NCBI RefSeq assembly: GCF_004010195.1
Contig: NC_057757.1
Location: 1,488,723-1,552,722 of the forward strand
DNA: 64,000 bases
Reading direction: 5' to 3'
Origin: Chiloscyllium plagiosum
Lineage: Eukaryota
The notes under the pieces were generated by a model. It worked only from the letters and a program-made list of their open reading frames with translations. It did no database searches and was not told the DNA's origin. The translations under genes and the position numbers were made by a program. The stretch's first letter is position 1. Each line of letters starts with the position of its first letter. Shown here in pieces: positions 9,088 through 58,298 of this stretch.

Positions 9088-9141
9088 TTATAAATGAGAA
9101 GCAGTGTTATAGACATTCATCTGTGGCCTCTGGATTTTCAC
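9088..9141 (-). CDS. MUC3/MUC17-like: Transmembrane mucin, last coding exon
   Basis: Strong acceptor gtctttcttttgcag|, phase 0. Translates VKIQRPQMNVYNTASHL*; the IQRPQ end is characteristic of MUC3/12/17 tails, and S-H-L is a class I PDZ-binding-type terminus. Confidence 0.9.
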   Translation of the reverse strand: MKIQRPQMNVYNTASHL

Positions 9142-9212
9142 CTGCAAAAGAAAGACATAAATATTTTATTTCTTTCTCTATGTAAACTTGTACTTTATAC
9201 TCAAGTTCAAAT

Positions 9213-9425
9213 AGGGGTGGCACAGTGGCTCAGTGATTAGCACTGCTGCCTCACAGCGCCAGGGACCTGGGTTTGATTCCAGCCTCAGACGGCTGTCAGT
9301 ATGGAGTTTACACATTCTCCCCGAGTGTGCATGGGTTTCCTCCCACAATCCAAAGATGTGCAGGTTAGGTGAATTGGACATGATAAATTGCCCATTGTGT
9401 TAAGGGATGTGTAGGTGAGCTGCGT
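9213..9425 (+). mobile_element. HE1-like V-SINE, 3' truncated
   Basis: Same head and V-domain as 7969-8305. Confidence 0.8.
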
Positions 9426-11936
9426 CATAAGAACTAGGAGTGGAGTAGGCTGTCCCGCCCTTCAAGCTTGTTGAGCCACTCAATAAGATCATAGCTAGTC
9501 TCGTCGTGGACTCAGCTGCACTTACCCATGTTTTCACCATATCTCTTAATTCCTTTGTTTTTCAAAAAATTACCTACCTTAGCTTTAAAAGCAATTACTG
9601 AAGTAACGTCAACTATTTCCCTGGGCAAGGAATTCCATAGATTAACAACCCTTTGTGAGAAGAAGTTCCTTCTCAGTTCATCTAAACCTGCTTCCTTTAA
9701 TCTTCAGGCCATGCCCTCTTGTCGCAGTTTCACCTACCAGTGGAACCATCCTATCTATTTCTATTTTAATGATTCCCTTCATAATTTTATATGTATTGAT
9801 AAGATCTCCCCCCCATTCTTCTGAATTCCAATGAATATAATCACAATCTACTCAGCCTCTCCTCATTAACTAACCCCCTTAATGATTCCCTTCATAATTT
9901 TATATGTATTGATAAGATCTCCCCCCATTCTTCTGAATTCCAATGAATATAATCACAATCTACTCAGCCTCTCCTCATTAACTAACCCCCCCAACTCTGG
10001 AATCAACCTAGTGAACCTCCTCTGCACCTTCTCCAGCACAAGTACATCCTTTCTTAAGTAAGGAGACCAAATCTGCGCAGAGAACTCTAGGTGTGGCCTG
10101 ACCAGCACCTTGTACAGCTGTAACATTACCTCACTGCTTTTAAACTCAACCCCTTTAGCAATGAAGGACAAAATTCCATTTGCCTTCCTAATTACTTGTT
10201 GTACCTGCAGACCAACCTTCTGCGATTCATGCACAAGGACACCCAGGTCCCTCTGCACAGCAGCATGCTGCAATGTTTTACCATTCAAGTAATAATCTGT
10301 TTTACTGTTACCCCTACCAAAAAGTATGACTTCACATTTACTAACATTGTATTCCATCTGCCAGACCTTTGCCAACTCACTCAATATATCTATGTTCCTG
10401 TACAAAGTTTCGCAGTCCCCTGCACACTTTGCTCTGCCACGCATCTTCGTGTCATCGGCAAATTTTGACACCGTACGTGTGGTCCCCAATTCCAAATCAT
10501 CTATATAACTTACAAATAATTGTGGTCCCAACACCGATCCCTGAGGCACACCACTAGTCACTGATTTCCATCCAGGATCGCACTCATTTATCCCCACTCT
10601 TTGCTTTCCATCAGTCAACCAATCCTCTATCACGCTAATATTCTATCCCTAACACCATGCACCCTTATCTTATGCAGCAGCTTTATGTGTGGCACCTTGT
10701 CAAAGGCCTTTTGGAAATGTAGGTACACCACCTCCACTGGGTCCCCATTAGCCACCTTGCTTGAAATGTCTTCATAGAATTCCAAAAGTTTGTGAAGCAT
10801 GACCTGCCCTCATGAACCCATATGGTATCTGTACAATGGGACAATTTTTATTGAGATGCCTTGCTAGTTCTTCCTTGATAATAGACTCAAGCATCTTCCC
10901 CACTACAGATGTTATGCTCTCTGGTCAATAATTCCCCATGTTTTGTCTACTTTCCTTTTTCAACAGTGGTGTCACATTTGCTATTTACCAATCTGTTGGA
11001 ACTGCGTCAGAGTCCAGTGAATGTTGGAAAATTACCACCAGTCCATCTGCTATTTCTCCTGCCATTTCTTTTAGTACCCTGGGATGCATTCCATCAGGGC
11101 TAGGAGACTTATCTATCCTTAGATCCATTAGCTTACCCAACACTAGCTCTTTCGTAATAATGATTATTTCCAGGTCCTCGCCTACCTTCATCTCTTCGTC
11201 ACTTACTGGCACGTTATTAGTATCCTCCACTGTGAAGACCGATGCAAAGCACCTGTTCAATACGTCAGCCATTTCATCATATCCCATAACTAACTGCACT
11301 TTCTCATCCTCTAACGGACCAATATTTACTTCAGCCACTCTTTTTATATATAACTTTTGCTATCTGTCTTTATAATTCTGTGCTAGTTTTTTTCTCTTTG
11401 TGGCTTTCTGTTGACCTTTAAAGTTTTCCGAGTCTTCTAGATTCCTGCTATTTTTGGCCATTTTGAATGCTGTCTCTCTCACTTTGATAGCCTGCCTTAT
11501 TTCCTTAGACACGCATGGCAGATTATTGCTCCTTTTACAGATCTCCCTTCTCACCTGAATATACTTTTGCTGAGTACTTCGAAAAATTTCTTTGAAGGTC
11601 TTCCACTGCTCATCAACTGTCACATCATAAAGTCTCTGTTTCCAGTCTACTTTAGCCAGGTTCTCCCTCATTCTCTCATAGTCCCCCTTATTCAAGCACA
11701 AGACCCTGGTATTGGATTTTATCTTCACACTCTCCAGCTGTATTATAAATTCAACCATACTATCATCACTCCTTCCAAGAGCATCCCTGACTTTGAGGTC
11801 ATTAATTATTCCTGTCTCGTTACATAGGACCAGTTCTAGGATAGCTTACTCCCTCATTGGTTCCATTACATGGTGTTCAAGAAAATTATCATGGATAAAT
11901 TCAACGAATCCCTCCTCAAGGCTACCCTGACTGAGC
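9426..11936 (-). mobile_element. CR1 LINE, 5' truncated and decayed
   Basis: RT motifs SGVPQGSVLGP, SKFADDTK, LYKVLVRPHLE, KSPSPDGMHPRVLKE; 3' UTR at the low end. Confidence 0.92.
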
Positions 11937-12725
11937 TGTTATTTTCTATGAACCTCTCTATTAATTAAACCAAATACCCAGGGAAGTTCACCTCTCCTTT
12001 TAATCTGTTAAAATATGAGTGACAGAGAATTATTTAAAGAAAATAACATTGATTTATTGTTAAACTCAAAAGTGAACATTAAACAATTATTCACAACTCT
12101 AAGCCCCCTTTCGCTTAAGTGCTTATTATCTGCATATAATACTATAAGAATATGCTGTTCCAGTAAGACAGTTATTAAAATTACATCAATTTAATTTCAA
12201 AACCACACAGCTGCTGTCATGTCCTGTGTCTGTCTTCTTCTGCTGAAGATCTCTTTGGGTCGTCTTCTTTCTTTTTACTGCGAATATGTTTCACATGGAA
12301 AGGTACCTTTGATAGAGAGTGTTTCCCAATTTCTTGGAGAGCAAGATATTGGCTCTCCATTGTTTCTGCCCCTATGGCAGTTGCTCTCTGACCAATTTTC
12401 AAAAGGTCCGCATTGTGTTTCCCCCCCCACCCCCCCAACATTGGATGATCTCATTGGTTCAATATTGGCAAAACAATAAATTCAAATTTCATTGGATTTT
12501 AGTATTCTGGGACATAATTTAAACTCATTCCTTAAATTTCAATTGTTGTTAAAATAGCAACCAAAACTCAGGTATCCATCTCACAACCAAAGGTTACATA
12601 TTTTCAATTTTCCAGTGCACTCTGGAGCTTCCATCTAGTCATATCACAGGTCCTTGTCATCTCTCAGTTCAGAACTGCATTCATTCTCTCTTAAAGGTAC
12701 AGTACACGCCTTCAACTCCAAAACA
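11937..12725 (-). mobile_element. Solo LTR (same family as 30054-31369)
   Basis: TGTTA...AAACA termini; colinear similarity to 30054-31369 over its whole length; AATAAA on minus near 12055. Confidence 0.7.
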
Positions 12726-12865
12726 CAGTGAATTGGAGGACAGGGAATAACTGGGCTAGGGCATACAAATGTAATTAAATTCTCATTCATGAATTAAGCA
12801 CAGAATGTATGTTTTAAGTGTTTGTCATCAATTTTTTGATGTTGGATTGGGATAGACAAAATCAG

Positions 12866-13695
12866 AAATCACATGACACCAGGTTGCAATCCAACAGGTT
12901 TTTTTGAAATCACAAGCTTTTGTAGTGATGCTCCTTCATCAGGTGGTGAAGTGGAGGAAAACACACAATTACAGAATTTATATGCGGATATATGCCTGCA
13001 AGGTGATTCCAGGGAATTAAGAGTGTCAAAAGATAGTGCAAATGGTGTGAGTGGACTGTCAACAAGTAGCATAACAAGCCCTTGCAGAAGATCAAAAGTG
13101 CCAAATGGTGTGAGTGAAGTGTCAACAGCTGAATAACAAGTGAAGTGATGACCTGTGATCCAATTAAGGCAGAGATGTAATTACGAAAAATCAAAAGTAA
13201 GATTATGCTAGAGACACACTAAATAATTGGAATAACGTGATACGACCCTAGTCATGAGATCATAGGTCATTCCTTCACTTGCTGTTCAGCTGTTGACACT
13301 TCTCTCACACTGTTTGACACTTTTGATCACCTGCAAAGACTTATTATTCCGCCTTCCTAAAAACGGGCTTATGCCCAAAACGTCGATTCTCCTGCTGCTC
13401 AGATGCTGCCTGGCCTGCTGTGTTTTTCCAGCACCACACCTCAACTCTGGTCTCCAGCATCTGCAGTCCTCACTTTCTCCTTATTATTCAGCCTGTTAAC
13501 ACTCCTCACACCATTTGCACTACCTTTTCACACTCTTAATTCACTGAAATTATTTTGCAATTATCGCACCGGTCTATAAGTTCTGTGCCTGTGCGCTTCC
13601 CTCCACCTCACCTGACAAAGGAGCAGCGCTCCAAAAGCTTGTGATCTCAAATAAATCTGTCAGACTACATGTTGGTGTCATGTGATGGCTTACTT
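12866..13695. mobile_element. Fold-back Penelope-like insertion (family B), two ~300 bp inverted arms
   Basis: 12866-13160 is the inverted copy of 13258-13686. Each arm has a decayed hammerhead (cac-ctgatga-aggagc..gctcc-gaaa-gct.-gtg) at ~12915-12946 (-) and ~13610-13643 (+). Confidence 0.8.
13350..13479 (+). mobile_element. Penelope family A 3' end inserted into the family B arm
   Basis: TSD cttattattc at 13340-13349 and 13480-13489; decayed hammerhead gggcttatgcccaaaacgtcg. Confidence 0.85.
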
Positions 13696-13829
13696 TATCA
13701 ATTCCTTTGTTCATATTTACATTGTGAACTATCCATAGAAATGTCTCAGGCAGTAATAATGCCCACCTGTCTGCACTATCACTACAGCACATTGACTAGA
13801 AGAGTAATTACAGTGTGACAATTGCACAG

Positions 13830-14360
13830 AGGCAAAAGTGAGAACTGCTCATGCTGGAGATGAGAAATGAGAGTGCTGGAAGAGCACATCAGGTCAGGCA
13901 GCATCTGAGGAGCAGGAAAATCATCGTTTCGGACAAAAGCCCTTCATCAGGAATGAGGCTGGCAGTCGAGGGGGTGGAGAGATAAATGGGAGGGGGTGGG
14001 GCTAGGGGTGGTAGCTGAGAGTGTGATAGGTGGATAGAGGTGGGGGTAAAGGTGATAGGTCGGAGAGGAGGGTGGAGCGGATAGGTAGGAAGGAAGGTGG
14101 ACAGGTCATGAGGGTGGTGCTGAGCGGGAAGTTTGAAACTGGGATAAGGTGGGGGGAGGGAAAATGAGGAAACTGGTGAAATCCACATTGATGCCATAGG
14201 GTTGCAGGGTCCCAAGGCAGAAGATAAGGCCTTCTTCCTCCAGGTGTCGGCTGGTAAGGGAGTGGCGATGGAGGAGACCTAGGACTTGCATGTCCTCAGC
14301 GGATTAGGGGGGGGAGTTGAAGTGTTCGGCCATGGGGTGGTGGGGTTGGTTGGTGCGGGT
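13830..14360 (-). mobile_element. Penelope-like element 3' fragment (family A)
   Basis: MQVLGLLH...LIFCLGTLQPYGINVDF endonuclease C-terminus; hammerhead ctgatgaagggcttttgtccgaaacg at ~13925-13950. Confidence 0.85.
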
Positions 14361-14547
14361 AGTTGGAGATGGGAGATTTTAATCTACATGTAGAATGGTC
14401 GAACCAGCTCAATCAGGGTAGCCTTGAGGAGAGGTTCGTTGAATGTATCTGTGATAATTTTCTTGACAGTATGTAATGGAACCAATGAGGGAGCAAGCTA
14501 TCCTAGATCTGGTCCTATGTAATGAGACAGGACTAATTAATGACATC

Positions 14548-17500
14548 ATGTTGTGCCAACCTATGAAACCAATCTGAAGCTGATCTAACTTACACTATTC
14601 CATGATTATCTATTTGTTTATTCAATGACCACTTAAATGCCCTTAATGTTGTTGAGTCTACAACTATTGCAGGCAGGGCATTCCACACCCTTACTACTCT
14701 CTGAGTAAAGAACCTACCTCTGATATCTGTCCTATATCTATCATCCCTTAATTTAAAGCTATTACCCCTTGTTCTAGCCATCACCATCCAAGGAAAAAGG
14801 CTGTCACTGTCCACCATATCTAATCCATTGATCATCTTGTATGTCTCTATTAAGTCACCTCTTAACTTTCTTGTCTCTAACAAAAACAGCCTCAAGTCCA
14901 TCAGCCTTTCCTCATAAGACCTTCCCTCCATACCAGGCAACATCCTGGTAAATCTCTGCACCCTTTCCAATGCTTCTACATGCTTCCTATAAAGCGACAA
15001 CCAGAACTGTATGCAGTACTCCAAGTGCAGCCACACCAGAGTTTTGTACAGCTGCAACATGGCGTTATGGCTCTGAAACTCAATCCTTCTACCAATAAAA
15101 GCTAACACACCGTACGCTTTCTTAACAACCCTATCAACCTGGGTGGCAAGTTTCAGGCATCTATGTACATGGACACCAAGATCTCTCTGCTCAACCACAG
15201 CACCAAGAATCTTACCATTAGCCCAGTACTCTTTATTCCTGTTACTCCTTCCAAAGTGAATCACTTCACACTTTTCTGCAATAAACTTCATTTGCCACCT
15301 CTCAGCCCAGCTCTGCAGCTTATCTTTGTCCCTGTGTAAGTTGCAACATCCTTCAGCCCTATCCACAATTCCACTGACCTAAGTGTCCTCCTCAAATGTA
15401 GTAATCCATCCTTCTACATCCTCATCCAGGCCATTATACAAACGAAAAACAGCAGTGGCCCCAAAACAGATCCTTGTGGAACACCACTGGTAACTGAATT
15501 CCAGGATGAACATTTCCCATCAACCACCACCCTCTGTCTTCTTTCAGCTAGCCAATTTCTGATCCAAACTGCTAAATCACCCTCAATCTCAAGCCACCAT
15601 GTTTTCTGCAGTAGCCTACCATGGGGAACCTTATCAAACCTTATCAAACCTTATCAAATCCATATACACCACATCAACCCCTTTACCCTCATCCACTTAT
15701 TTGGTCACCATCTCAAAGAACTCAATACGCTTTATGAGGCATGACCTATCCTTCAAAAAACCTTGTTGACGCTCCCTAATCAAATTATACCTTTCTAGAT
15801 GTTTATACCGATCTCTTATAATCCTTTCCAAAACTTTGCCCATAACCGAAGTAAGGCTCAATGGTCTATATTTATCAGGGTTGTCTCTACTCCCCTTCTT
15901 GAACAAGGGGACAACATTTGCTACTTTATGGCACTTTTCCTGTAGACAATGACAACATAAAGATCAAAGCCAAAGGCTCTGCAGTGTCTTCCCTAGTTTC
16001 TCAGAGAATCCTAGGACAAGTCCCATTTGGCCTAGGGACTTATCTATTTTGACACTTTCCAGAATTGCTAACACCTCATCCTTATGAACCTCAATCCTAT
16101 CTATTCCAAAAGCCTGTATCTCAGTATTCTTCTCGACAACATTGTCTTTTTCCAGTGTGAATACTGACGAAAAATATTCATTGCGTGCCTCTCCTATCTC
16201 TTCGGACTCCACGCACAACTTCCCACTACTCTCCTTGACTGGCCCTAATCTTTCTCTAGTCATTCTTTTATTCCTGATATTCCTATAGAAAGCTTTAGGG
16301 TTTTCCTTGATCTGACCTGCCAAAAACTTCTCATGTCCTCTTCTGGCTCTTCTTAGCTCTCTCTTCAGGTCTTTCCTGGCTAACTGAGTCTTTACGCCTC
16401 ATCTTTACATAAGCCGCCTTCTTCCTCTTGACAAGAGATTCAATGTCTTTAGTAAACCTCAGTTCCCTCACTAGACCACTTCCTGCCTGACAGGTACATA
16501 CTTATCAAGGACGGATGGTAACTGTTCCTTGAACAAGCTCCACTTTTCAATTGTGCCTATCCCCTTCAGTTTCCTTCCTCATCCTATGCATCCTAAATCT
16601 TGCCTAATTGCATCATAATTGCCTTTCCTCCAGCTATAACTCTTGCCCTGTAGTATATACCTATCCCTTTCCATCGCTAAAGATACCTTAACCCAATAAC
16701 ACTATCACCAAAGTGCTCACCTATTTCCAAATTTAATTTCTGGCCTGGTTCATTACCCAGTACCAAATCCAATCTGGCCTCTCCTCTTGTTAGCCTATCT
16801 ACATACTGTGTCAGGAAACCCTCCTGCACACATTGGACAAAAACTGACCTATCTAAAGTACTTGAACTATAGCATTTCCAGTCAACATTAGGAAAGTTAA
16901 AGTCTGCCATAACAACTACTCTGTTACTTTCACTCCTATCCAGAGTCATTTTTGCAATCCCTTCTGCTACATCTCTGGAACTTTTCTTAGGCTTTTCGAA
17001 AACTCCCAACAGGGTGACCTCTCCTTTCCTGTTTCTAACCTTAGCCCATAATACTGTCCTTGACTAACCTCCCAATCTTTTATCTTCCCTGTTCTTACTA
17101 AAATATCTAAACCCCGGAATCTGCAACAACCATTCCTGACCCTGCTCTATCCATGCCTCCAAAGTGGTCACAAGATCGAAGTCCCAGGTAGCAATCCATG
17201 CTGCAAATTCACCCACCTTTTTCCAGGTGCTCCTGGCATTGAAGTAGACAACTTCAAACTACCTTCCTGTCTGCTGGTATACTCCTGTGACCTTGAAACC
17301 TTATTCATGACCTCACTACTCTCAACCTCCTGTACACTGGAGCTATTCTGTGTCAGACTACTCTCCTACGAACCTGACCTTGAGAATTTTTTAAAACACT
17401 GGTATACTCCTGTGACCTTGAAACCTTATTCATGACCTCACTACTCTCAACCTCCTGTACACTGGAGCTACAATTCAGGTTCCCATCCCCCTGCTGAATT

Positions 17501-17575
17501 AGTCTAAACTCTACCAGAGAGCATTAGCAAATTTCCCCCTCCAGGATATTGGTACCTCTCTGGTTCAGGTTCACC
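14548..17575 (-). mobile_element. CR1 LINE, near-complete ORF2, decayed
   Basis: APE motifs VVMADFNFPNVDW and LDLVLGNEP; RT motifs YRPLSLTS, FDKVPHGRL, SGVPQGSVLGP; C-terminus FFTQRVVRVWNALP. Confidence 0.92.
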
Positions 17576-18029
17576 TCAGTGTCATAACAATTGGAAGACT
17601 ATACTCAGTCTGAATTCTTGTTTGCCACACCACAACAGATTACTTAGATATATATTAAAAATGGCCTAAATTGCTGCCTCCTGCACTGAAGTACTTCTGT
17701 TATTCTGTGAGGGCACGCATTTCCTATTTTCAGCTTCACTTCCTGCTGTGATAGTAGGAACAGAATGTATCTTACGCTATTGTCTCCTCTGACAAAGGGT
17801 ATTTGACAGTCTGTAATACAGTTTTGAATGTATTAATGATCATGGAAGATTTTATACCTGACTTTCTGAGAAAAGAGGGAGCTGATAAATTTCACCCAAA
17901 TTTTCTTGACCTGAATAATACATGTTCTCAAAGAGTTATCAATAGAGGTCAGTTTGAGGTCATACATCAATGTGACACTTATGATTTAATTGATCTATCA
18001 TTTAGACTATTAATGGTTTAAACACACAC

Positions 18030-18118
18030 CTGCTCAGTTTTGAAGTTGAATTTGGAGTTTAGCTCCGGTTTCACATTTACAATCGAAAAGTCAGTCAATT
18101 TTCTTTCACCTGTTGAAT
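18030..18118 (-). CDS. MUC3/MUC17-like: Transmembrane mucin, cytoplasmic exon 2
   Basis: Acceptor cattaaacag| (an in-frame alternative cag lies 9 nt downstream), donor |gtgtgt; 89 nt, phase 1->0. Translates (N)STGERKLTDFSIVNVKPELNSKFNFKTEQ. Confidence 0.8.
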
Positions 18119-18869
18119 CTGTTTAATGAAGACATGAAAAGGTCATTATTATCAGGAAAGACTAGCCTTGTATGTATACAGCACTTATATGTCCTGAGTA
18201 TACCACAGTGCTTGAAAGTAATTTCAGTTTGCTGCAATATAGGAAACACTACTTGTTAATATATGCAAGATCCCACAACAGAAATAAGGTCTTTTATTGA
18301 GAGAGGAACATTAGATATCAAGATAAATAGGCAATTCTTTGTTGTCATGGGATCCTTTACACCAGCTGAACTGTTAGCTATGTCCTCACTGTTAAGTACC
18401 ACAAATCAAGAATGATATTGAGAGATCTATAACTGTGATGTAAGATAGAAATATGTGATCTGTTCATTGCTCTTTAAAATACTGTATGAAATAACTTCAC
18501 CAAACATGATGCTGTGTTTCACTTTTAGCATCGCACACTGGAACATCAATTTTAAGACCTCAGTTGAAACAGGCATAAGGCTAGCAACAAAATAGTTCTT
18601 TTAATTTTCAGCTGCTTAAATGCTATTTGTACTTTGCAGTCACCATTACTTTTAGGATGAATAAAATCACTAGCTTATTTGTAACCTATGGAAATAGCGT
18701 CAGTCATCTTTTGCCTCATTCAAAATAGATGAAACCTGAAGTAATTCTGGAACCAAATTAAAATAATAGTCAGCTCAAATTTGAAGTGGTCTTGACTATT
18801 CTGTTGCTAAAATATGTCTGACTAAAATGTCCAATTAAAATTAAAGGGTACAGTAAATATGAACCTTAC

Positions 18870-18979
18870 TGTCAAAGCTGGTATCTTCTCTGTTAGCTAC
18901 TGTGATTGTTGAAGGATTGCAATATTCAAAATCATCTTCTGCCCATTGTTGTGCTATAATTTTGATTTGTTCGTCCTCT
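18870..18979 (-). CDS. MUC3/MUC17-like: Transmembrane mucin, cytoplasmic exon 1
   Basis: Acceptor gtttttcaacag|, donor |gtaagg; 110 nt, phase 2->1. Translates (R)EDEQIKIIAQQWAEDDFEYCNPSTITVANREDTSFD(N). Confidence 0.85.
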
Positions 18980-19534
18980 CTGTTGAAAAACACAGTTGTG
19001 AGAGAATTACACTTCGAATAAAAAGGTAATTGAGGTACTTTGCATTAGTTTAGTTTACCAGATCAGTTGACACACTATACTTCCACTTCTTGAATCATTT
19101 TAGTAATTTGCTTCAAGAGGTGACAGAAATGGCCTGTGGGAGAAGTGGAAATGGCTGCACACCACAATCCAACTGAGAAGGCCGTGAGCAGCATTGGAAG
19201 TGTCATCACCTATGGGATCCTTGCCAAAATGACCTTGCAGCTGCAAGCCATCCCAGTTCCTCTGGCCCCTTAGACAAAGTTCTGCTTCATAGATGATGTA
19301 TTGTTCATTATGCCCCCTTATTGGTTTCTGTTTCTGTCTAGCTAAACCTGCAGTAAAAGATAACATTCAGTTGTGTAGACCTTGAGAAATGTAGGTCTGT
19401 GCAATGTATGTAGCAGGTGTACAAACTGACTGTTTACCCTACAACTGCCCCTAGGTTGAATAATTAATGGACAGTGGGCTTGTGATATATAGGTTGTATC
19501 ACCAAGAGGTAGTTTGTAGAGACATGGGATAGAA

Positions 19535-20020
19535 TTTTCTGTTGCCAATTTCTGCCATCTCCAGCAGGATGCCACTACCAAACACATATCTATCTCCCCC
19601 CCCCCCGGCAGCCTTCTGCAGTATGTTCCTGCCAGGACACCTTGGTCCACTCCTCCTCCACTCTCAACACCTCCTCAAACCCGCGTGGCACCTTACACTT
19701 CAAAAGGTGTAACACCAATCTGTTTACTTCCTCCGTCCTCCAAGGCCCCAAATACACCTTTCAGGTGAAGCAGTGATTTACCTCACTTCACTCAATCTAG
19801 TCTGCTCAACTGTTTTTCTCTCTATGGGCTCTACTTTCACCTATTATTTACTCTTTCTCCCTTCTCCTAACTCTTCTCTAACCTATATACTAACCTTTTC
19901 CTAGCTACAAACAGTTCTGAAGAAGGATTACTCAACCCGAAACATTAACTCTGTTATCTCTCCACAGATGATGCCAGAATTGCTGAGGTTCTACAGCAAT
20001 TTTTGATTTTGTTTTATAAA
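19535..20020 (+). mobile_element. Old Penelope-like fragment with family C hammerhead
   Basis: Decayed similarity to the Penelope C-terminal region; agtt-ctgaaga-agga..aaccc-gaaac-att-aact at ~19913-19950. Confidence 0.65.
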
Positions 20021-21519: not shown

Positions 21520-21696
21520 CTTTCTCTGAAGTAATGCTTTCTGCTCCTTCGAAACCACACCATGTAGACTGCAAAGGCTATAAGGCCCAGAAGAAACAGG
21601 ATCAATGTCGCGGATAAACCACCAATCAAACCATTCTTGTGAATCGGGATGTTACAGAAATCCCCAAGGTACCAATAACTTCCAGTTAAATCACAG
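21520..21696 (-). CDS. MUC3/MUC17-like: Transmembrane mucin, EGF end plus transmembrane helix exon
   Basis: Acceptor ctcttttcccag|, donor |gtacag; 177 nt, phase 2->2. Translates (Y)CDLTGSYWYLGDFCNIPIHKNGLIGGLSATLILFLLGLIAFAVYMVWFRRSRKHYFRE(R): YWYxGxxC motif, hydrophobic helix, basic stop-transfer. Confidence 0.93.
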
Positions 21697-21898
21697 CTGG
21701 GAAAAGAGGAAGGAAAAAATTCACCATTGGCATTGCATCATTACTGTCTGCTGTTCCAGTAAACAACACATCAGGGTCCTGAGGACAGGAGATTCACACC
21801 CGGTATTACTAACCTCCAGCTGCAATATTTACAGATGGAGGAAATGTAAAAGTGAATGGGTGCCTGGCTAATGGCTTAAGTGCCTACTCTCAAACTGC

Positions 21899-27794: not shown

Positions 27795-27957
27795 TAGCAT
27801 TTGGCTCCCTTATTTGTCATTCCACATTTTCCATTTCCACATTTCAGTGAGTCCTTTCTTGCTTCGTTGCAGATCGAAGCACATATGGCTCCATTATTGG
27901 TCACAGTCAATTCATAATGTTGCTTTAAATTCTCAGGAACCTGTGAAGCACAGTCAC
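27795..27957 (-). CDS. MUC3/MUC17-like: Transmembrane mucin, membrane-proximal EGF-like exon
   Basis: Acceptor ttttgcaatcaacag|, donor |gtaaga; 163 nt, phase 1->2. Translates (G)DCASQVPENLKQHYELTVTNNGAICASICNEARKDSLKCGNGKCGMTNKGAKC(Y), a MUC3/17 EGF2-type Cys spacing. Confidence 0.92.
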
Positions 27958-34445: not shown

Positions 34446-34505
34446 CAGTTACAACTGCTTCAACTTTTAAGTAGCCAGGATCAAGTACCAATCGAGTGCT
34501 GTTAC
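34446..34505 (-). CDS. MUC3/MUC17-like: Transmembrane mucin, SEA-EGF linker exon
   Basis: Acceptor tttttaaatatag|, donor |gtaaga; 60 nt, phase 1->1. Translates (G)NSTRLVLDPGYLKVEAVVT(G); phases join both neighbours. Confidence 0.75.
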
Positions 34506-42292: not shown

Positions 42293-42432
42293 CTTGTGTT
42301 GCATTGTTGCAAGTTGTTTCTTTCAGTTTGACTTCAATGTCTTTAATTGTCTCAGAGAGATATTCTGGAGTAAGCTCTGCTGGATTGGTCATGTTGATGA
42401 TAATGTCATGATCAACAATGATGCTGCCATTT
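42293..42432 (-). CDS. MUC3/MUC17-like: Transmembrane mucin, SEA domain exon C with G|SIIV autoproteolysis motif
   Basis: Acceptor ttcgcttcatag|, donor |gtagga; 140 nt, phase 2->1. Translates (R)NGSIIVDHDIIINMTNPAELTPEYLSETIKDIEVKLKETTCNNATQ(G). Confidence 0.92.
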
Positions 42433-43395: not shown

Positions 43396-43414
43396 CTATT
43401 TCATAGTACATATT

Positions 43415-44068: not shown

Positions 44069-44074
44069 CTGTGT

Positions 44075-45444: not shown

Positions 45445-45465
45445 TCGCGTGCCATGAGTCAGACT
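45445..45465 (+). promoter_or_regulatory. Degenerate primer-binding site, tRNA-His-like
   Basis: gtgccatgagtcagac matches GTGCCGTGACTCGGAT at 12/16, directly after the LTR. Confidence 0.6.
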
Positions 45466-45672
45466 TGGTACGGATGGATTGTGGGCACCGGTGTAAGACC
45501 CTTGAGTCCTCCACTATAGAGTGTAGAGGAATCAGCTGACCAGACATGAGTATATTCTCCATTTGGTTTTCCTCTCATTCAAGTCACGGTTGACTCGACC
45601 CCTCACTGCTTATCATCTCAATCCAGCCTGAGAAGGATCGGTCTTGGTAAGAATTCGTTCAGAAAAAATTAA

Positions 45673-46030
45673 AAAGGAGTCGGGAACTCACATAAAGATC
45701 GGGGACCTACAGATTGGGGATCCGGAATAAAGTCAGGGACTCTAAAGATTAAAAAGGAGTTGGGGACTCCAGGGAGTCGGGGACTCCACTTAAAAGGCTG
45801 GGGACCTATGGATCAGGGATCCAGAATAGAGGCATGGACTCTAAACATTATAAACGAGTTGGGGACTCCACTTACAGGTCGGGGACCTGCGGATCGGAGA
45901 TGCGGAATAGAGTCAGGGACTCTAAAGATCATAAAGGAGTCTGGAACTCCAGGGAGTCAGGGACTCCACATAAAGTTCCGGGACCTGTGGATCGGGGATC
46001 TGGAATAGAGTCGGGGACTCTAACATTAAA
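45673..46030 (+). repeat. Higher-order tandem repeat in the ERV leader
   Basis: Four units alternating ~80 and ~98 bp, built from gagtcggggactc and gatcggggatc motifs. Confidence 0.85.
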
Positions 46031-48580
46031 TAAACAAGTTAGGGACCTGAGTAAGGAAGTACAAATTAATCAGGGGCTCAAATTCGGTCAAATTGGAGTT
46101 GTCTAAATTGATTTCCAAATTATTCTGTGAAAGACAAAACAAAGATGTTTCGCGATATATGTCAGTTTTAGAATGTTTTGCAGAAATCATTAGTCTTGTT
46201 CGTTGTTGGGTTGTTGATTAGTGAAAGTTTCAAGTCGAGATTATCTTCTCTGTTTGACTTGGCTTGTCTTGCTTTGCTGCTTTGTCTTGTTGTCTGCTAT
46301 GGTTTTGTTCTAGTTGTTTTGGTGTTTGTTCTTTGTTTATGAAATATAGAGGATGGTTGCTACTTTTGTCGCGTTTAAAAAGAAAAGCCGGCCAGTGATA
46401 CAATTCTCACACATTTTGTTAAGCAGCTATGTGCCACAGCCAGATTTAAGCTAAACTCCCTAATTTTGACAGTTCTGGAATGTGAGTGCCTCATTACCCT
46501 TAAAATGTTCATAAGTGTGTATGTGAGAGAGAGAGAGACAGAGGCCAAGACTCAGTGCTGATTCACTGCAGCTTGCAGAAAGTTTAACCCTTTGAGATTT
46601 GGTTTGAATGTACTTTTGCTTGTTGGTGATTGAATGTTTGTCTTTTGTTCCCTGGAGCTCGAGATCCGGGACTGTTTTGAATTTGATTTACATATTGGGA
46701 ATTTAGCATGATTTCAAGGTTAAGGATCCATCAGTGATTATGAAATGAAATATTAGCCCCTGTTCTTTTTACAGGCCATGACTGCCCTACTGTCAATTTC
46801 TAACTAATCACTTTTATGCTACATCAACGCCAATCTTATTTAATTTCTAACCAGTTTAATATGGCGGAAGACAACATTATAATCTTTTTTAGAAAGTCTT
46901 CTCCTTCGATTCTGCATCATTTGACATCAGTATAAACTTGCTGTCAAATTCCCCATAATTTCATGCTACTACCAAAGATCATTTCCATCCCTCTCACCCC
47001 TACGTGTTGTACTAATGAAAGAATTGACTAAAGGAAGTAAAGCAGTAGTACTAAATCTGGGCCTCGGGTGCAGAATCATTCTGTTCCAGGATGAGAGTAG
47101 GTCAATGCTCAACTTTAGTTATAATCTAAACCTAACATTGAGGAAAATCACTTCAGACTTCAACATTTGCATGAACCTTATTTCATTTAGTTAAATTTTG
47201 TAAAACTGAAAGTATAAAGATAGATCCAAAATATCCCATAACAACAGCATTGTTTTCAGAAAATGATACTAGAGATTTAATTTTTGTTTCAGACTCGTTT
47301 GTTTCCACTTAATTTTAAGGCTGTTGTGTCTCATTGGTGATTATGGTGTGCCAGTCGTAGCTTTATTTTATCTCAATTTTCCTCCCTCAATGACAAATGA
47401 ATTTTCAGTTCAACATTATGTTGTAGTAAATCATGTAACAAAATTAACATCTTATTGTTAATATCTGTGTCTTTGGATTCGGCGATTACTTGTGCATTAG
47501 AAGTTTTTTCTTACCATGTGAGTAGACAAGACCTTTGAGGCAGCTGCAGTTATTTCACGGCCGATAGCATTGTAAATGAGCAATGACTGGCCAGGACTGC
47601 TTAAGGAATCTAATCTGGGATCTACATTAAGGGACTAGAACAAGGTAATTATAATGGATTTCAGAGTTGAAAACTGTATACATTTTACATTTTAAATATT
47701 GAATACTGAATAAATGAATTTCCAATTTATACTGATAACTTGTAAAATGTCTTAGCCACTTGTTCAGTTTCCACCTCTGAATTACAGATAATGATTATTT
47801 TATTTATTATTTTTTGATAATCAATTGTTTTGGCCCTGAATCACAAAATCAGAATTAATTGGCAGGATCGCTTGGCTTTATCCCTTTACACATTGTCAGT
47901 GACCTGTCTCATTGCCTCACAGTTAATTTGAAGTATGGTTGCATTAATTCGTTGCTAACTAAAGAAAGGAAAGATACCTTACTGGCCAGATGACGGTATT
48001 CTACATTTGATTGGGGGATAGAGGTATGTATAGCAGATGGAACTCCCAAACGCTGGGAGGTGTTCATAGCTGACTGTGAATGGGGAGATGAAAGAATAAA
48101 AGGGACATGAGAAACAGTATCAGGCCACTAAAGCTAAGGAAAATACAAACAGGGTTAAAGGGTTAAAGCAACAATGCTGTAAAATAAAGAACATAGATTC
48201 TACTCGGAATCCCAAGCCTATGTCTGGCATACTGACCCTCTTTGAGGATGGGGATTTTATTCTTGGATATCTGCTAAGCCCCTGACATCTCCTGATTGTC
48301 CCCAGCACACACACACACACCCTCCCCTTTCCTTCTTTTGAAAATGAAGCATCCAGTCTTCGTAGCCGATATCATGGGGATGAGTGGCCTGCGCCATCCT
48401 AAACCAGGGCCCATCCTGGGAACCAGAGTAATGTTGATGAAGCATGCCCCTGACCGCAAGAACAAACCAGCCCAGTTTGCTCAATACGTCCAAAGGACGA
48501 TACACATGTAAATGCAGTAAAATTCTGGGAGTAGCCTGAATGTGAATGGCTTGCGTTATAAAACTGAAATATGTAGCCAT

Positions 48581-48748
48581 CTAGATTAGATTAGATTAAA
48601 TTACTTACAGTGTGGAAACAGGCCCTTCAGCCCAACAAGTCCACACCGACCTGCCGAAGCGCAACCCACCCAGACCCATTCCCCTACATTTACTCCTTCA
48701 CCTAACACTATGGGCAATTTAGCATGGCCAATTCACCCAACCTGCATC
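48581..48748 (-). mobile_element. HE1-like SINE 3' half inside ERV gag
   Basis: (tagat)n tail and reverse complement of the 8160-8305 segment. Confidence 0.85.
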
Positions 48749-49129
48749 TGTCTGATGGAAGTGGTGTACAATTGAAAAAATAATCAAGAAGCTGAGTCAT
48801 GTTTGTTTAACCCTGTGCTTTTGCAATGTTTTCCTCCTGGTGTCATTGACATGATCCAGACAAACCATATGAACTAGTCCAGGAATTTCCAGTCGCAAAT
48901 GAGGTGAGCAGTGGTTTTCTATTGGGACGGCCAGTATCAGACTGAACCATGATACAAGTTACAGGTAAAACCGATTGTATCCAGCACCCTCGCGATCCCC
49001 AATATCATGTGTCAGCCCCAACGGGGTTGATTGGGACCAGCATACCCAGTGCTGGTGGAAACTACCTCAGATGCCCACCCAGCGACCTCTGCTGAGCAAC
49101 CCTTTCCCGAGGGAACCCTGGAAATGGGG

Positions 49130-50225
49130 TCAGGCAGGCTTCAGAATTACACCTTTGTGACTGGAAACAAGACAGCAAAACCTTTCAGGGACAAATGGCT
49201 GGCCCTTGCTTTAACTGTGGAAATATGGCCACTTGAGAGTGATGTGTCTTTAATGTTACCTTGGAGCTAATGTAGGGAATCGACATGCTTACAAAAGGAA
49301 TATCTGCTAATATACACTGACTCTTAGTTGTGCTTTTGATGTGACCCACCATTTTGGTGCCTTGTGGGAACATAGAGGATTTTTACCCTCCACGAGGTGG
49401 CATTACAGTAATGTTGTTTTGTCCAACCTGTCAGTTATCAAGATGTTCGGCTCACACTGACACCACTGATAGTGTCCAAAGTAATGAGCAGATGGATGCT
49501 GCTGCCAAGCAGGCAGCCTTACACCCCAAAACGTCTGGTCCCATTGTGCCTCCAGCAAAACCTGAATAGAGACAATATGGGGACAGGTGTGCCAGACCTG
49601 GGTATGGTACAGAAATCACAGGGAAAGCCCCCTGCTGAAGAGCACAAACTATGGCCTCAAATAGGGTACTCCCTCGATACTCAAACCAAAATGTGGGTGA
49701 CTCCTGCTGGACATGTTTGTGTTTCTTCTTTGCTGCTGCCTATTTTGGTTGATTATGTACATTATTGTACACACTTGGGCAAGGAAGGAATGGTTAATAC
49801 TTTTACAAACTTGGTGGCATGCAGATTTTCAGAAAGCAGCTAGAAAAAGAGCTGCGGTGTGTTTAATTTTTAAGCAAACAAGACACATGCTGTAAAAGGT
49901 TGTTAACCACTTCCTTGCCTAGTGGGCCTTTTTTACTTGTCTACAGCTTGCTTTTAAAGAATTACCTCACATACATTGTTATGAATATTGGCTAATAATA
50001 GTAAATGTTTTTAGTAGATGAATCAAAATCACCCCAATGACTGATACTGCTGCCACTATAGTGGTGGACAGGTGAGAAGTATTTGCATCAGTAACCAGAA
50101 TTAAATTGGAGCCTAGGTGGAAAGACCTGTTCCTAGTCCGGCTGGTCACCCGTGCAGCAGTCAAGACCAAGGGAAAGCTGCATAGACGCATGGGATGCAG
50201 TGCAAGAGAACACCGCCCCAAGGAG
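49130..50225 (+). pseudogene. pol: ERV pro-pol remnant lacking RT and most of the integrase core
   Basis: Protease end GIDMLTK; RNase H end CSAHTD..SNEQMDAAAKQAAL; integrase HYCTHLGKEGM..WWH..CLI; C-terminal LEPRWKDLFLVRLVTRAAVK. Confidence 0.85.
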
Positions 50226-51117
50226 AAAATCTATTGATTAATGCTTTGTTACCTGCAAAACCCACGACCACAGATGTCCCCAATTGACTGTTTTTGCAAT
50301 TATTATATTGTTTTTAATTGTCCTCGGTATAACCTGGTGGCCTCTACTAAGAAAGAACTGCATTTTAATACTTTCCTTTCAGCTGCTCCCCTCCCTCGAC
50401 AATGGTCCGGCTGTTGGACCTGGCTCATTCATTCTCATCAAGAATTGGACACACTGCAGCCTCCAACCTCGACGACAGGGGCTCTGCCAGGTTCTCCTCA
50501 CCACCCCTACTGCTCTTAAGGTTGCTGGGCATCTCCATCATTGCAAGATCATCGGACGAGCCCCTTGCAAGGGGAGAGATGATGAAGATCAAACTTAACC
50601 TGTTGTGTGGACTCATCATCATCGGCATTAATGCTCAAGAATGGACTATTTATCAGTGTGATCCTAAGCAACCAGAGACTGTATACCATTTGTGCCGAAA
50701 AGATGTCCTTGTGTGCCAAGAGACTGATTCCTTCGATGCATGAAACATTACCAAGAATAACCGTCGCAATGGTCAACTGCATCAAGAAGATCGGACAGTT
50801 CATTTACAGGACAAGTCTCAATGGTCTTTACCCTGTCAAGGTGTTTTATACCAGTTTGATTTCAGTTGTGCTATGGGCAGCCCTGGTAAGCTTTGACCCG
50901 ATCCAAATAGGTCTCAATCTGCACGCCACAAAAGAGAAAAGTGGAAATGTCGTCTTTCACTAACAATTTCTTTTTTTGAAGTCATAATAAAATATTCAGC
51001 CAGGATGTTACGCCCTCTCAGCAGCAAAGGACTCTTTGACCCTTTCCCCCTTCCGAATCCTAATGACGGAGTATGGAATACTTCTAAGGCGTTTACCAGA
51101 CATAATGTTTCCTTTGA

Positions 51118-51357
51118 GGAGAAAGTGAGGACTGCAGATGCTGGAGATCAGAGCTGAAAATGTGTTGCTGGAAAAGCGCAGCAGGTCAGGCAGCATCCAT
51201 GGAACAGGAGAATCAACGTTTCGGGCATAAGCCCTTCTTTAGGAATCTTCAGGAAGCGCACAGATTCCTGAAAAAGGGCTTATGCCCGAAATGTCGATTC
51301 TCCTGTTCCTTGGATGCTGCCTGACCTGCTGCGCTTTTCCAGCAACACATTTTCAGC
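51118..51357. mobile_element. Fold-back Penelope family A mini-insertion in env
   Basis: Perfect 17 bp TSD cataatgtttcctttga (51101-51117, 51358-51374); ~95 bp inverted arms, each with a hammerhead-like core. Confidence 0.9.
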
Positions 51358-51976
51358 CATAATGTTTCCTTTGATTATTATTTATCCCCACCTGCTGTCT
51401 GTTTGTGGACATCCTCTCATAAGTCCAGAGTAGCATATCCAAATTGTTACAACGGTACGGGATGGGAGTGCACTTACGTGAATGTGACTAAGACTATTCC
51501 ATGTGCCTTGGTCAAAAGTAACAACCACTACTGCTCCCCTGTGGGGCCTCTCATCTCATGCATATGCCTACAGGAAGAGTGTGTCTCTGTTAGTGCAGAT
51601 ATTCAGGCTGTATGTGATATGGGTAACAGCACCGCCCACCTTCACTATGAGATCTCTAATGGCACTTCCATCTTCCCAGTTGTGGGATGGAAGGAACCAG
51701 TCTGGGACGATAACCTTACCTCTTACAAGAAGACCCATCTCTTTTTATTGAACATCTTTCACCCTAAGCGCCCAGGGCAACCATACTTTGTAGCCATGGA
51801 CTACCTGTTCGTTTGGGGTAGTCACAAAGATAGGCCTGCTTCTTATTGGGAAGCCCCATCCATTATCTGTACTAAATCTGGTTATTGATTTTTCAGCCAA
51901 GGCAAAGTGACTAACTTCCTTGTTCTTAATGAAATAGGTACTCCCCGTGCTGTAGCTGAGGGATACTTCTATAGAA

Positions 51977-52340
51977 CCATCTATAGAATCCATCTACCAT
52001 GCCCGCTGTCAAGGAAAGGCCGCAAGCATTCTCAAAAATCCATCCCACCCTGGCAATGTTTTTCTACCATCAGGAAGAAGGTACAGAAGCCTGAACACAT
52101 GCACCAGCCAGTTTCGGAACAGTTTCTACCCTACTGTTAGAATACTGAATGGACTCTCAAACTTTTAACATTTGCCTGAACCTGTGTTTTTGTTTTTGCT
52201 GCTGTTTATCTTTTATTTACTTAGCTATGCTATTTAACTCTGTGATCTGCCTGTATTGCTCATAAGGCAAAGTTTTTCACTGTGCCTCGGTACACGTGAC
52301 AATAAATCCAATTCAATCCAATTCAGTTCAATTCAATTCA
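51977..52340 (+). mobile_element. Rex1/Babar-like LINE 3' fragment in env
   Basis: PSIESIYHARCQGKAASILKNPSHPG..LPSGRRYRSL..FRNSFYP and (caatt)n-like tail after aataaa. Confidence 0.8.
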
Positions 52341-53122
52341 TTTTTCCCGATTACTGTTCCCTGGTCCAACTACCTGGGAATGGGGTTGGGGTTTCCCTAC
52401 CAAACGTTCAGTTTCACCTGAATTCTGCACATATTGGAGGGATGCTAAGGCTTTGGGCAACAGTAAAGCCCAGTCTGTGGGCTACACATTTCTTAGTGCT
52501 TTTTCCTTAGGAGGATCTGCAGGAATTATTAGCCACCCAAATTGAAATTATATTATTTGCGGTCTCACCCTCTTGGGCAACAAGACTGCCTCGGCCTTAG
52601 CAGGAGTTAAGGGTATGCTCTCAGAATTATGTCTATTTTCCGGTATGCTCTCGACTACCTACTCACCAAACAGGGTGGGGTTTGCGCCATAGTGAAGGGC
52701 AAATGTATGATGGGGGTTACCAGCCTCATCGAGAATATTAACAAGCATGTGGATAACATCCGCACCTTCGTCAGTTAAATGACAGAAGACTCTGGATGGG
52801 GAGATTGGGGTGTTGACTCATGGTACAACTGGTTGATAAATCTATGTATATTGGTATTATTTTAATTTGTCTCTTTGCTGGCATTGCTATAGTTAAATGT
52901 ATTATTGTTAAGTTAATGAATTCTGTTGACAACATCAGTTCCCCCCAGAAAATGCTTCTTCTCTATCCAAGTGAAGGTGAGGAGGAGCAGTTGCCCACCC
53001 CTGCTTCCTCGGAGGAGGAGGAGGAGGAGGTATGGCAGGCTCTAGCATCCGTTCGATTGGACTAAACTAATCTATGCCCTCCCTCCTACGGTGTGATCAT
53101 TGGAATGACCAAAAGGGGGAGA

Positions 53123-53572
53123 TGAGGATCTGAACCTGAATACTGGCTGAGGTAACTAGTTGTTGTCAAGAACAACCACTTAATAGATGCTCTTAATAAC
53201 TTAGGTGGCAACAAGATGGCCTCTCGATGCAAATATCATGACAAAATGGCTTCGAGGCTGCAAATTGACAATTCTGCTAAAGCTGCATAAATGGCTTTTA
53301 AGTTACTAACTGCTAATTCTGCTATAACTGCATAAGTGACTAACCACAGTCTGTTTCAATAGAGATTAGCAGATAATACTCCCTTTACGCACAGAAATAA
53401 CTAGACTAGATAAGACATTACTGGCCACCTTCAGATGTAGGTGCAATGGCTAGGTTTGTGAGATAAGGGTAGCCTGAGTATTGGAAAATAAAGTTGGTTC
53501 CCAGGAAATATCATTGGACTGAGTAACTGTCAAATAAAGCAGTATCATGTATTGATTGATGATTGATAATTG
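53123..53572 (+). repeat. ERV 3' LTR, truncated before R-U5
   Basis: Aligns to 44757-45199, then passes abruptly into a CR1 fragment. Confidence 0.9.
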
Positions 53573-57208: not shown

Positions 57209-57250
57209 TTTTGAAGCAACCTAGTGAGCTACAAGCTGAATCAATATTAC

Positions 57251-57309
57251 CTTATGCTCGTGATCTTCACTCCTGCGTATCCCTCTATATCGTTATAAAT
57301 TATGTCCAT
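57251..57309 (-). CDS. MUC3/MUC17-like: Transmembrane mucin, SEA domain exon B
   Basis: Acceptor ctcttttcaag|, donor |gtaata; 59 nt, phase 0->2. Translates MDIIYNDIEGYAGVKITSI(R), the segment just before the SEA cleavage motif. Confidence 0.9.
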
Positions 57310-58179
57310 CTTGAAAAGAGGAAACATGACAGAAGTTTGTGATTGTAAATGTACTTTTAATTTAATTAAAAGAACCGAGTTAACTAAGTTCAGCACAATC
57401 TCTCCATCGCCCCACCCCCTTCAATCTCTGCTCACATCTGCTATGTTGATGACATTGAAAGTTTGGAGACTGGCATTATGCCAAAGAACTGAAAGCAAAA
57501 AAATCTTAAGACCAATGTTCTGTAAAGGTGCTAGCCATGGCAATTGTGAATTAATTTCAAGTGCAAAATGGATTTGACCATTGGAGCGGAGTAAATTAGT
57601 TGTGGGATCACATTAGATTTGGCCTGATCTACATAACAGTTATCAAATAATTTTCTTTTCAAAAAATAACAGTGCATGAATCAAAAGCATGGATTGGATA
57701 TTGCAACCATAGGTTTTCAGAAAGCTGGATAAGAGATTTTAACCAAGTTAGGATCAGTAATATTAAAGTAATCAGACCTGCATTAGTGGAGAAATGGCTA
57801 AAGAAAGATAAGTTGTTGGTTGTTGATTTGGAGTTTATAATCTATTTCCAGTAAGACATAAATGTGTATAATTGTAGTAAGTTAGTAGAAAATCAGGAAA
57901 ATGAATGAAAGCTGATTGCAAGAAGATTTAGAAAAGCTCATGGACAGGTGGATATTTACAAAAATGCCATTCAAGTGAGAGAAACATTGAAGTCATATAT
58001 CTTGTTACAGGACATATTCAATAGAGATAAATACAAAATAGTAAGGACTGGGAGAACCTATACAGAAATGGCTGTAAAAACAGAAGTTCAATGAGATTGT
58101 ATATATTGGGGCAATTAATATGAAAGCAAAGTAGCAATGTTGAACTGCTGGAGTAAAATTTGCAATCCTGCGCACCAAC

Positions 58180-58298
58180 CTGTTGTTTAAAGTCACTCTC
58201 AAAATTTTGGAACTCAGATGATGTGATGTCATTCAGTTCTGTTGTATACTTCTGATTTATTATTCTGACAGAAATATTGACAGAGATTTCAACAGCAT
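58180..58298 (-). CDS. MUC3/MUC17-like: Transmembrane mucin (MUC3/12/17 family), SEA domain exon A; most 5' exon confidently found
   Basis: Acceptor ttttacag|, donor |gttggt; 119 nt, phase 1->0. Translates (x)AVEISVNISVRIINQKYTTELNDITSSEFQNFESDFKQQ, matching the N-terminal SEA pattern (ELxDxxSxEFxxF) of MUC3/17. Confidence 0.9.

What the first reader, a model, noticed from the sequence alone, without database searches (positions are those of the whole stretch)
9088..58298. Hidden intact MUC3/MUC17-type transmembrane mucin gene in a probable cartilaginous fish
Seen: nine small minus-strand exons with GT-AG sites whose phases chain exactly (1-0-2-1-1-2-2-1-0). They give 971 coding nt without internal stops over 49 kb of repeats, and the ORF track does not report this protein. 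Established: SEA with G|S[IV][IV]V, an EGF-like domain, YWYxGxxC, a TM helix and an IQRPQ tail define the mammalian intestinal MUC3/12/17 cluster. Inference: this subfamily architecture and exon layout date to the jawed-vertebrate ancestor. The PTS region and first EGF lie upstream, outside the window or in the gap.
Basis: partly seen in the sequence, partly recalled or inferred. Interest (0 to 1): 0.72.

Follow-up and report, generated by a model that had tools for sequence, protein, structure and literature searches.

The report
Shark MUC3/MUC17-type membrane mucin gene
This is the back half of a real bamboo-shark gene for a cell-surface mucin of the family that coats the gut lining in mammals; it is already annotated in public databases, so it is an ordinary gene rather than a hidden one.

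Summary
Nine minus-strand AG/GT exons (58298 to 9088) chain in phases 1-0-2-1-1-2-2-1-0 and give 971 nt including the stop. The 322-aa product is identical to residues 17-338 of RefSeq XP_043539555.1, mucin-3B-like of Chiloscyllium plagiosum, so the gene is not hidden. It encodes a SEA domain with G|SIIV, an eight-cysteine EGF-like module, one transmembrane helix and a tail with KIQRPQ and a class I PDZ-type end (SHL). Relatives named mucin-3/17(-like) occur in sharks, rays, chimaera, gar, paddlefish, coelacanth, frogs, turtle, kiwi and mammals. In the tree it groups with other cartilaginous fishes, outside the mammalian MUC3B/MUC17 group, so it is a family member, not a specific MUC3 or MUC17 orthologue. 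A public contig fits the spliced 3' exons. The PTS and first EGF exons are not in the window. Gut expression, ACHE-TRIM56 synteny, human intron phases and a true MUC13 outgroup were not tested. The papers I could read describe the cluster in mammals only, so the deep origin is under-stated in print but already implicit in database annotation.

The parts
58180..58298 (-). Exon 1 of the nine: N-terminal part of the SEA domain (phase 1 to 0)
   Evidence: Pfam SEA E 1.5e-4 on the exon alone; matches RefSeq model
57251..57309 (-). Exon 2: SEA, helix and strand before the cleavage site (phase 0 to 2)
   Evidence: found blind by family profile, E 0.0024
42293..42432 (-). Exon 3: SEA C-terminal part with the predicted self-cleavage site G|SIIV (between 42426 and 42425) and Cys100 (phase 2 to 1)
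   Evidence: solved ADGRF1 and MUC1 SEA chains end at the aligned Gly
34446..34505 (-). Exon 4: linker; Ser where most relatives have the second linker Cys (phase 1 to 1)
27795..27957 (-). Exon 5: Cys-rich / EGF-like module, six of its eight Cys (phase 1 to 2)
   Evidence: a contig piece of run X2 covers 27795-27958
21520..21696 (-). Exon 6: end of the EGF-like module (YWYLGDFC), transmembrane helix (about 21629-21555), basic stop-transfer stretch (phase 2 to 2)
   Evidence: contig pieces of runs X1, X2, X3 end at 21696
18870..18979 (-). Exon 7: cytoplasmic tail, acidic, with conserved Trp (phase 2 to 1)
   Evidence: X1 depth in its bin 5.66, expected 5.81 for an exon-only signal
18030..18118 (-). 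Exon 8: cytoplasmic tail (phase 1 to 0)
   Evidence: X1 depth 6.27, expected 4.7
9088..9141 (-). Exon 9 coding part: KIQRPQ motif, C-terminal S-H-L (class I PDZ-type), TAA
   Evidence: contig of run X1 covers 8700-9138
   Evidence: inference

Best explanation
The window holds the last nine exons of a bamboo-shark gene for a type I membrane mucin of the MUC3/MUC12/MUC17 family, related to the mammalian cluster as a whole rather than to one member. Shown: exon chain, protein identity to a RefSeq model, SEA fold, eight-Cys module, one TM helix, tail ending S-H-L, family placement. Inferred from the mammalian proteins: a signal peptide, a long O-glycosylated PTS region and a first EGF are encoded upstream; the SEA domain cuts itself at G|S during folding and the two chains stay bound; the tail is held at the apical membrane by a PDZ scaffold; the PTS rod forms a glycocalyx on a mucosal epithelium, most likely the spiral intestine, keeps bacteria off the membrane and is shed when force unfolds the SEA domain.
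For: 322/322 identity to XP_043539555.1. Pfam SEA E 7e-11. AlphaFold model pLDDT 82 with SEA fold; the six Foldseek hits at E<=0.001 are TMPRSS6 and MUC16 entries. 143 of 145 aligned relatives keep all eight Cys columns. Of 20 hand-picked hits among the best 150, 13 are named mucin-3/17(-like), 3 hypothetical, 3 unnamed, 1 mucin-1 that matches by SEA repeats only, 0 MUC13. Atlas: Mucin-12 0.98 and 0.96, Mucin-3B 0.94, ahead of IMPG2 0.92 and HEG1 0.85-0.87. Shark and ray relatives carry PTS + EGF + SEA (P0158, P0012, P0008). Tail ends S-H-L here and in whale shark, S-Q-L in horn shark. Human cluster genes have 10 exons after the PTS (PMC9578598 S6 Table): nine here plus the missing EGF exon. 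A 2979-nt contig fits the spliced exons 6-9. Mechanism in mammals: PMC13643018 passages.
Against: No PTS, signal peptide or first EGF of this gene was seen, and the RefSeq model lacks them too. No MUC13 sequence was in any comparison. The family set was collected with the shark protein as query, which biases profiles. Deep branches of the tree are open; the family versus outgroup split has 88/92 support with long outgroup branches. The run behind the contig is only guessed to be RNA, has no tissue label, and the splice joints were not among the 15 joints shown (582 hidden); the single-cell run showed no depth in the bins of exons 7 and 8 in the 2% read. The cut motif is GSIIV, not the G|S[V/I]VV of the review. 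A class I end is present in only 22 of 74 tails with the RP motif, so it is not universal.
Confidence: 0.9

Rival explanations
1. It belongs to another SEA/EGF membrane family (MUC13, HEG1 or IMPG-like) and the mucin-3/17 names are best-hit labels.
For: Names on predicted proteins are automatic. IMPG2 clusters score 0.92 in the Atlas. IMPG2-labelled bird proteins and a mollusc protein share SEA + Cys-rich + TM. No MUC13 sequence was tested.
Against: Near full-length matches to named mammalian Mucin-3B and mucin-17-like proteins rank in the best 150 of 1.84 billion. A profile of the 23-row mammalian clade scores the product 190 bits against 63 (mollusc) and 53 (IMPG2-labelled). Shared eight-Cys spacing and tail motif. 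HEG1 clusters rank lower and carry EGF_CA. That MUC13 has two EGF domains after the SEA is recalled, not from a call.
Confidence: 0.04
2. It is a 5'-truncated duplicate: a tandem copy that lost PTS and first EGF and makes a short SEA-TM protein or is decaying.
For: The RefSeq model begins with 15 residues unlike the family and has no EGF or PTS. One linker Cys is lost.
Against: All nine exons are open with canonical sites over 49 kb of repeats. The orthologue in a second bamboo shark is 88% identical over the 207 residues matched. Only 5.7 kb lie upstream in the window, with a 500-N gap at 61045-61544, while introns here reach 14.8 kb. PTS exons are commonly missed in assemblies (PMC13643018).
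Confidence: 0.06

Closest known systems
RefSeq XP_043539555.1, mucin-3B-like, Chiloscyllium plagiosum
   Same: 322 of 322 residues identical; same nine exons
   Different: The model adds 15 N-terminal residues that are not encoded in the window and has no signal peptide, PTS or first EGF, so its 5' end looks incomplete
Mammalian MUC3A/MUC3B/MUC12/MUC17 (human 7q22 cluster)
   Same: SEA with G|S site, eight-Cys juxtamembrane module, single TM, tail with xQRP motif and class I PDZ-type end; exon count after the PTS fits
   Different: About 25-30% identity; the mammalian proteins group together apart from the shark gene (87/96); the gene spans 49 kb for nine exons against 6-14 kb for ten in human; one linker Cys is missing; synteny and tissue unknown
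Mucin-17-like / mucin-3-like models of other cartilaginous fishes (Rhincodon, Heterodontus, Scyliorhinus, Mustelus, Carcharodon, Hemitrygon, Rhinoraja, Narcine, Callorhinchus)
   Same: 42-72% identity for the main lineage; grouping follows species relationships
   Different: A second, long-branched lineage exists in Mustelus and Narcine; stingray and skate copies lack both linker Cys
IMPG2-labelled bird proteins, a Mya arenaria PTS-SEA-EGF-TM protein, ADGRF1, MUC1
   Same: SEA domain with G|S site; the first two also a Cys-rich module before a TM helix
   Different: 43-79 bits (newt mucin-1: at most 29 per SEA repeat) against 237 for the window product on the family profile; tails do not align

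Membership tests
MUC3/12/17 membrane mucins | Juxtamembrane SEA domain with G|S[V/I]VV-type self-cleavage site | tested here: met
   Pfam SEA E 7e-11; G61|SIIV, a conservative variant; SEA fold; cleavage itself not assayed
MUC3/12/17 membrane mucins | Cys-rich EGF-like module between SEA and TM | tested here: met
   Eight Cys in the columns kept by 143 of 145 rows, named mammalian members included
MUC3/12/17 membrane mucins | Single TM helix and tail with class I PDZ-binding end | tested here: met
   Hydropathy peak at residues 203-228 and end S-H-L; S-H-L and S-Q-L in two other sharks; binding not assayed
MUC3/12/17 membrane mucins | EGF-like domain before the SEA | tested here: inconclusive
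   Not found in the window; present in the paralog P0007 and in shark relatives; may lie beyond 64000 or in the 500-N gap
MUC3/12/17 membrane mucins | Large PTS domain on one exon | tested here: inconclusive
   No PTS exon in six frames of the window; PTS present in horn shark, white shark and stingray relatives
MUC3/12/17 membrane mucins | Ten exons after the PTS with shared intron positions and phases | tested here: inconclusive
   Count fits (9 + missing EGF exon versus 10). Indirect: 7 of 20 early-ending models stop on Arg 40-43 residues after the last Cys (one is a shark; 45 in the window), and the Galemys Mucin-3B model reads through at the last intron position. Human phases not available
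MUC3/12/17 membrane mucins | Tree placement with MUC3/12/17 rather than other SEA proteins | tested here: met
   Inside the 32-row family set against 3 outgroup rows, 88/92; MUC13 and HEG1 were not in the tree
MUC3/12/17 membrane mucins | Tandem cluster between ACHE and TRIM56/SERPINE1 | not testable with these tools
   No genome held; no other host gene seen in the window. Paralog pairs share a contig length in four cartilaginous fish species, a hint of tandem clusters only
MUC3/12/17 membrane mucins | Expression in intestinal epithelium | tested here: inconclusive
   Spliced-type contig in a run without tissue label
MUC3B or MUC17 as a one-to-one orthologue | Groups with one mammalian paralog to the exclusion of the others | tested here: not met
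   Mammalian Mucin-3B, mucin-17-like and a third type group together (87/96); the shark gene sits with cartilaginous fishes
MUC13 / HEG1 | Best hits and placement with MUC13 or HEG1; calcium-type EGF domains | tested here: inconclusive
   0 of 20 looked-up hits named MUC13 or HEG1; HEG1 clusters rank below MUC12/3B; no EGF_CA hit; no MUC13 sequence was obtained for a direct test

The most novel reading that the evidence does not exclude
The MUC3/12/17 glycocalyx mucin is an ancestral gut-barrier gene of jawed vertebrates, built on a still older SEA-Cys-TM module, which expanded into tandem clusters independently in sharks and rays (two lineages) and in mammals; and the bamboo-shark copies, having lost one linker Cys, carry an unpaired Cys100 (nine ectodomain Cys) that cross-links membrane subunits into covalent dimers, unlike mammalian MUC17. 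The ancestry alone I put near 0.85; the probability given is for the whole statement, dimer included.
Probability: 0.15. Interest if true: 0.5.

Novelty: already known. Interest (0 to 1): 0.2.

Why it matters
The gene is already in RefSeq, so the finding adds no new gene. Its modest value is comparative. A 2006 inventory said MUC3/12/17 seem to be missing in chicken and fishes and might be recent (PMC1552070, section read), and a 2026 review describes the cluster as conserved across mammals (PMC13643018, passages). The database proteins gathered here show the family in chimaera, sharks, rays, ray-finned fish, coelacanth, amphibians, turtle and a bird, which points to an origin at or before the jawed-vertebrate ancestor. 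That makes a short synteny and phylogeny study easy, and makes shark spiral intestine a place to test how old the MUC17-type glycocalyx is.

Tried and rejected
Whole-genome search for the 5' exons, the paralog and neighbours: no genome is held. First EGF exon, PTS exon and the RefSeq model's first 15 residues: not found in the window; Ser/Thr-rich stretches there lie in or beside repeats. A second gene copy in the window: tblastn with 11 relatives hits one set of exons only. Getting a MUC13 outgroup: the profile search returned none among 19 hits. Run search: no RNA holder listed on record; this is no evidence either way. Single-cell run X11, about 2% read: uninformative. Rfam: 0 matches. Earlier findings of the scan: nothing. 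The mollusc tail looks like the xRP motif by eye but does not align, so I do not count it. Paper searches listed no paper describing MUC3/17-type mucins in cartilaginous fish; the library lacks most subscription papers, Lang et al. 2007 was not seen, and figures in supplements cannot be read. A carp paper names a muc17 (PMC11414713, passages) but reports no SEA domain in it, so I give it little weight. No complex prediction was run.
Full report
Observation. Motif scans of the six frames found the SEA, YWYxGxxC and IQRPQ motifs on the minus strand at 42428, 21677 and 9135. A splice-site scan, using approximate vertebrate frequencies recalled from memory, gave the remaining exons. Nine exons, 58298-58180, 57309-57251, 42432-42293, 34505-34446, 27957-27795, 21696-21520, 18979-18870, 18118-18030 and 9141-9088, all have AG acceptors and (the eight internal ones) GT donors. 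They chain in phases 1-0-2-1-1-2-2-1-0 and sum to 971 nt with the stop, giving 322 residues without an internal stop. The introns are 0.75 to 14.8 kb and rich in LINE, Penelope-like, LTR and SINE-like pieces.

Chance. A profile from 128 aligned relatives, with the rows I took for cartilaginous fish removed, scores the product at 236.8 bits; the best of 300 shuffles scored 4.6. On the raw window it returns five of the nine exons as its top five hits, in order on one strand; exon 7 comes at E 1.5 and exons 4, 8 and 9 are not listed. The rows were found with the shark protein as query, so the profile leans towards it.

It is already annotated. Exon 6 alone retrieved a 100% match named mucin-3B-like of Chiloscyllium plagiosum. 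The spliced product equals residues 17-338 of that protein, XP_043539555.1, at 322 of 322 positions. The model's first 15 residues are not in the window, nor is a first-EGF exon or a PTS exon. The 5' half lies beyond 64000 or partly in the 500-N gap at 61045-61544, and the RefSeq 5' end looks incomplete.

Transcription. No listed holder is on record as RNA. Laying four of the 24 listed runs on 8700-28100 showed one 2979-nt contig (run X1, depth 34) with a piece on 8700-9138 and a piece on exon 6 exactly, 199 letters apart; exons 8 and 7 plus three bases predict 202. The difference equals the one-codon deletion seen in the related protein P0002; this fit is my inference. Depth in the bins of exons 7 and 6 matches an exon-only signal, and the intron bin 20346-20992 is empty in all four runs. 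Pieces of X2 and X3 end at the exon 6 edge, and one X2 piece spans exon 5 to within a base. Against: the splice joints were not among the 15 joints shown, RNA status is a guess, no tissue is given, and the single-cell run gave nothing at exons 7 and 8.

Protein. Pfam finds SEA (E 7e-11). The model has mean pLDDT 82, a SEA fold, a beta-rich Cys module, one long helix through the membrane segment and a disordered tail; the six Foldseek matches at E<=0.001 are TMPRSS6 and MUC16 entries. Solved ADGRF1 and MUC1 SEA chains end at the Gly that aligns with G61 of G|SIIV, as expected for a self-cut site. Eight Cys before the TM helix are kept in 143 of 145 rows (11 of 156 proteins were left out for matches under 170 residues). 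Between the cut site and that module 117 of 145 rows have two Cys, 6 have one (this gene and its paralog among them), 10 none and 12 three or more. The ectodomain part therefore has nine Cys. The tail carries KIQRPQ and ends S-H-L, a class I PDZ-type end also seen in two other sharks but in only 22 of 74 RP-motif tails overall.

Family. The search of 1.84 billion representatives gave 435 hits at E<=0.001, of which 150 were listed. I looked up 20, chosen from a first tree: 13 are named mucin-3A/3B/17(-like) (colugo, desman, kiwi, turtle, two frogs, coelacanth, paddlefish, gar, chimaera, skate, electric ray, smooth-hound), 3 are hypothetical, 3 unnamed, and 1 is a newt mucin-1 matching by SEA repeats only. 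None is MUC13, none a cyclostome. The Atlas ranks Mucin-12 and Mucin-3B clusters first, IMPG2 next, HEG1 lower. In a 35-row likelihood tree the gene is sister to whale shark (100/100), inside sharks (98/96), then rays and chimaera; the coelacanth row falls in the same open group; the mammalian rows group apart (87/96); the deep branches are unresolved and the three outgroup rows are long. So it is a family member and co-orthologue at best; the names 3B-like and 17-like are labels. Paralog pairs share a contig length in bamboo shark, horn shark, stingray and smooth-hound, and a second lineage exists in Mustelus and Narcine, which hints at tandem clusters in elasmobranchs. No MUC13 sequence was obtained, so that rival is weakened but not directly tested.

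Exon layout. Human MUC3A, 3B, 12 and 17 each have 10 exons after the PTS, coding 350-368 residues (PMC9578598, S6 Table); nine exons and 322 residues plus a first-EGF exon fit. Gene-model artefacts in other species hint at shared positions for the intron after the TM exon and the last intron. Phases were not compared.

How it works. Inferred from mammalian MUC17 (PMC13643018, passages): self-cleavage of the SEA domain gives a glycosylated outer chain and a membrane chain that stay bound; a PDZ scaffold holds the tail at the apical membrane; the PTS rod forms a glycocalyx that keeps bacteria away and can be shed under force. The parts for cleavage, anchoring and PDZ binding are present here; the PTS part, the tissue and every activity are unshown.

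What is in print. Seen: PMC9578598 (passages, section 16, supplement search and S6 Table), PMC1552070 (passages, section 10), PMC13643018, PMC4948705, PMC11414713 and PMC3680472 (passages). The 2006 paper calls MUC3/12/17 missing in chicken and fishes; the 2026 review speaks of mammals and does not mention sharks; the 2016 paper has no mention of MUC3 or MUC17. Nine searches listed no paper on this family in cartilaginous fish, but subscription papers, Lang et al. 2007 and supplement figures were not visible.

Verdict. A real, well-read gene; right family; already annotated; the evolutionary point is plausible, easy to finish and of modest interest. Novelty: already known. Interest 0.2.

Noticed in passing
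window 44756-53565, + strand, inside intron 2: Degraded provirus-like element of about 8.8 kb opposite to the gene: terminal direct repeats of 444 bp with 427 of 441 aligned bases identical, a purine-rich tract before the second repeat, a weak MLV-type integrase C-terminal hit at 50242-50595 (E 8.7e-6, below cut-off), and 142-171 stops per frame.
   Followed up: partly
window 34505-34446 and 42293-42432: One of the two linker cysteines is Ser in this gene and its paralog P0007, leaving nine ectodomain Cys; stingray and skate copies lack both.
   Followed up: partly
   Followed up: no
P0022 (Mustelus) and P0036 (Narcine): A second, long-branched elasmobranch lineage of the family (100/100); the Mustelus copy shares a contig length with the first-lineage copy P0006.
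   Followed up: no
P0162 (Mya arenaria): A mollusc protein labelled serine-rich adhesin-like has PTS, SEA with G|SIIV, a Cys-rich module and a TM helix aligning to the family profile at 99.3% probability.
   Followed up: partly
P0163, P0164 (birds): Proteins, one labelled IMPG2, with SEA, Cys-rich module and TM; an Atlas cluster of an uncharacterised fish-type protein also scores 0.92. The label may be loose.
   Followed up: no
window 293-4194, 26114-26656, 28873-29480, 33038-33379: Broken Gypsy-like LTR retrotransposon pieces (integrase, RT and RNase H hits for three of the pieces).
   Followed up: no
window 7986-8290 and seven other places: SINE-like repeat of about 300 bp, copies 76-89% alike; one lies in the probable 3' UTR. 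CR1-like LINE and GIY-YIG (Penelope-like) fragments fill the introns.
   Followed up: no
window 43699-43913 and 61045-61544: Two assembly gaps (215 and 500 N); the second lies upstream of exon 1 and could hide the first-EGF exon.
   Followed up: no
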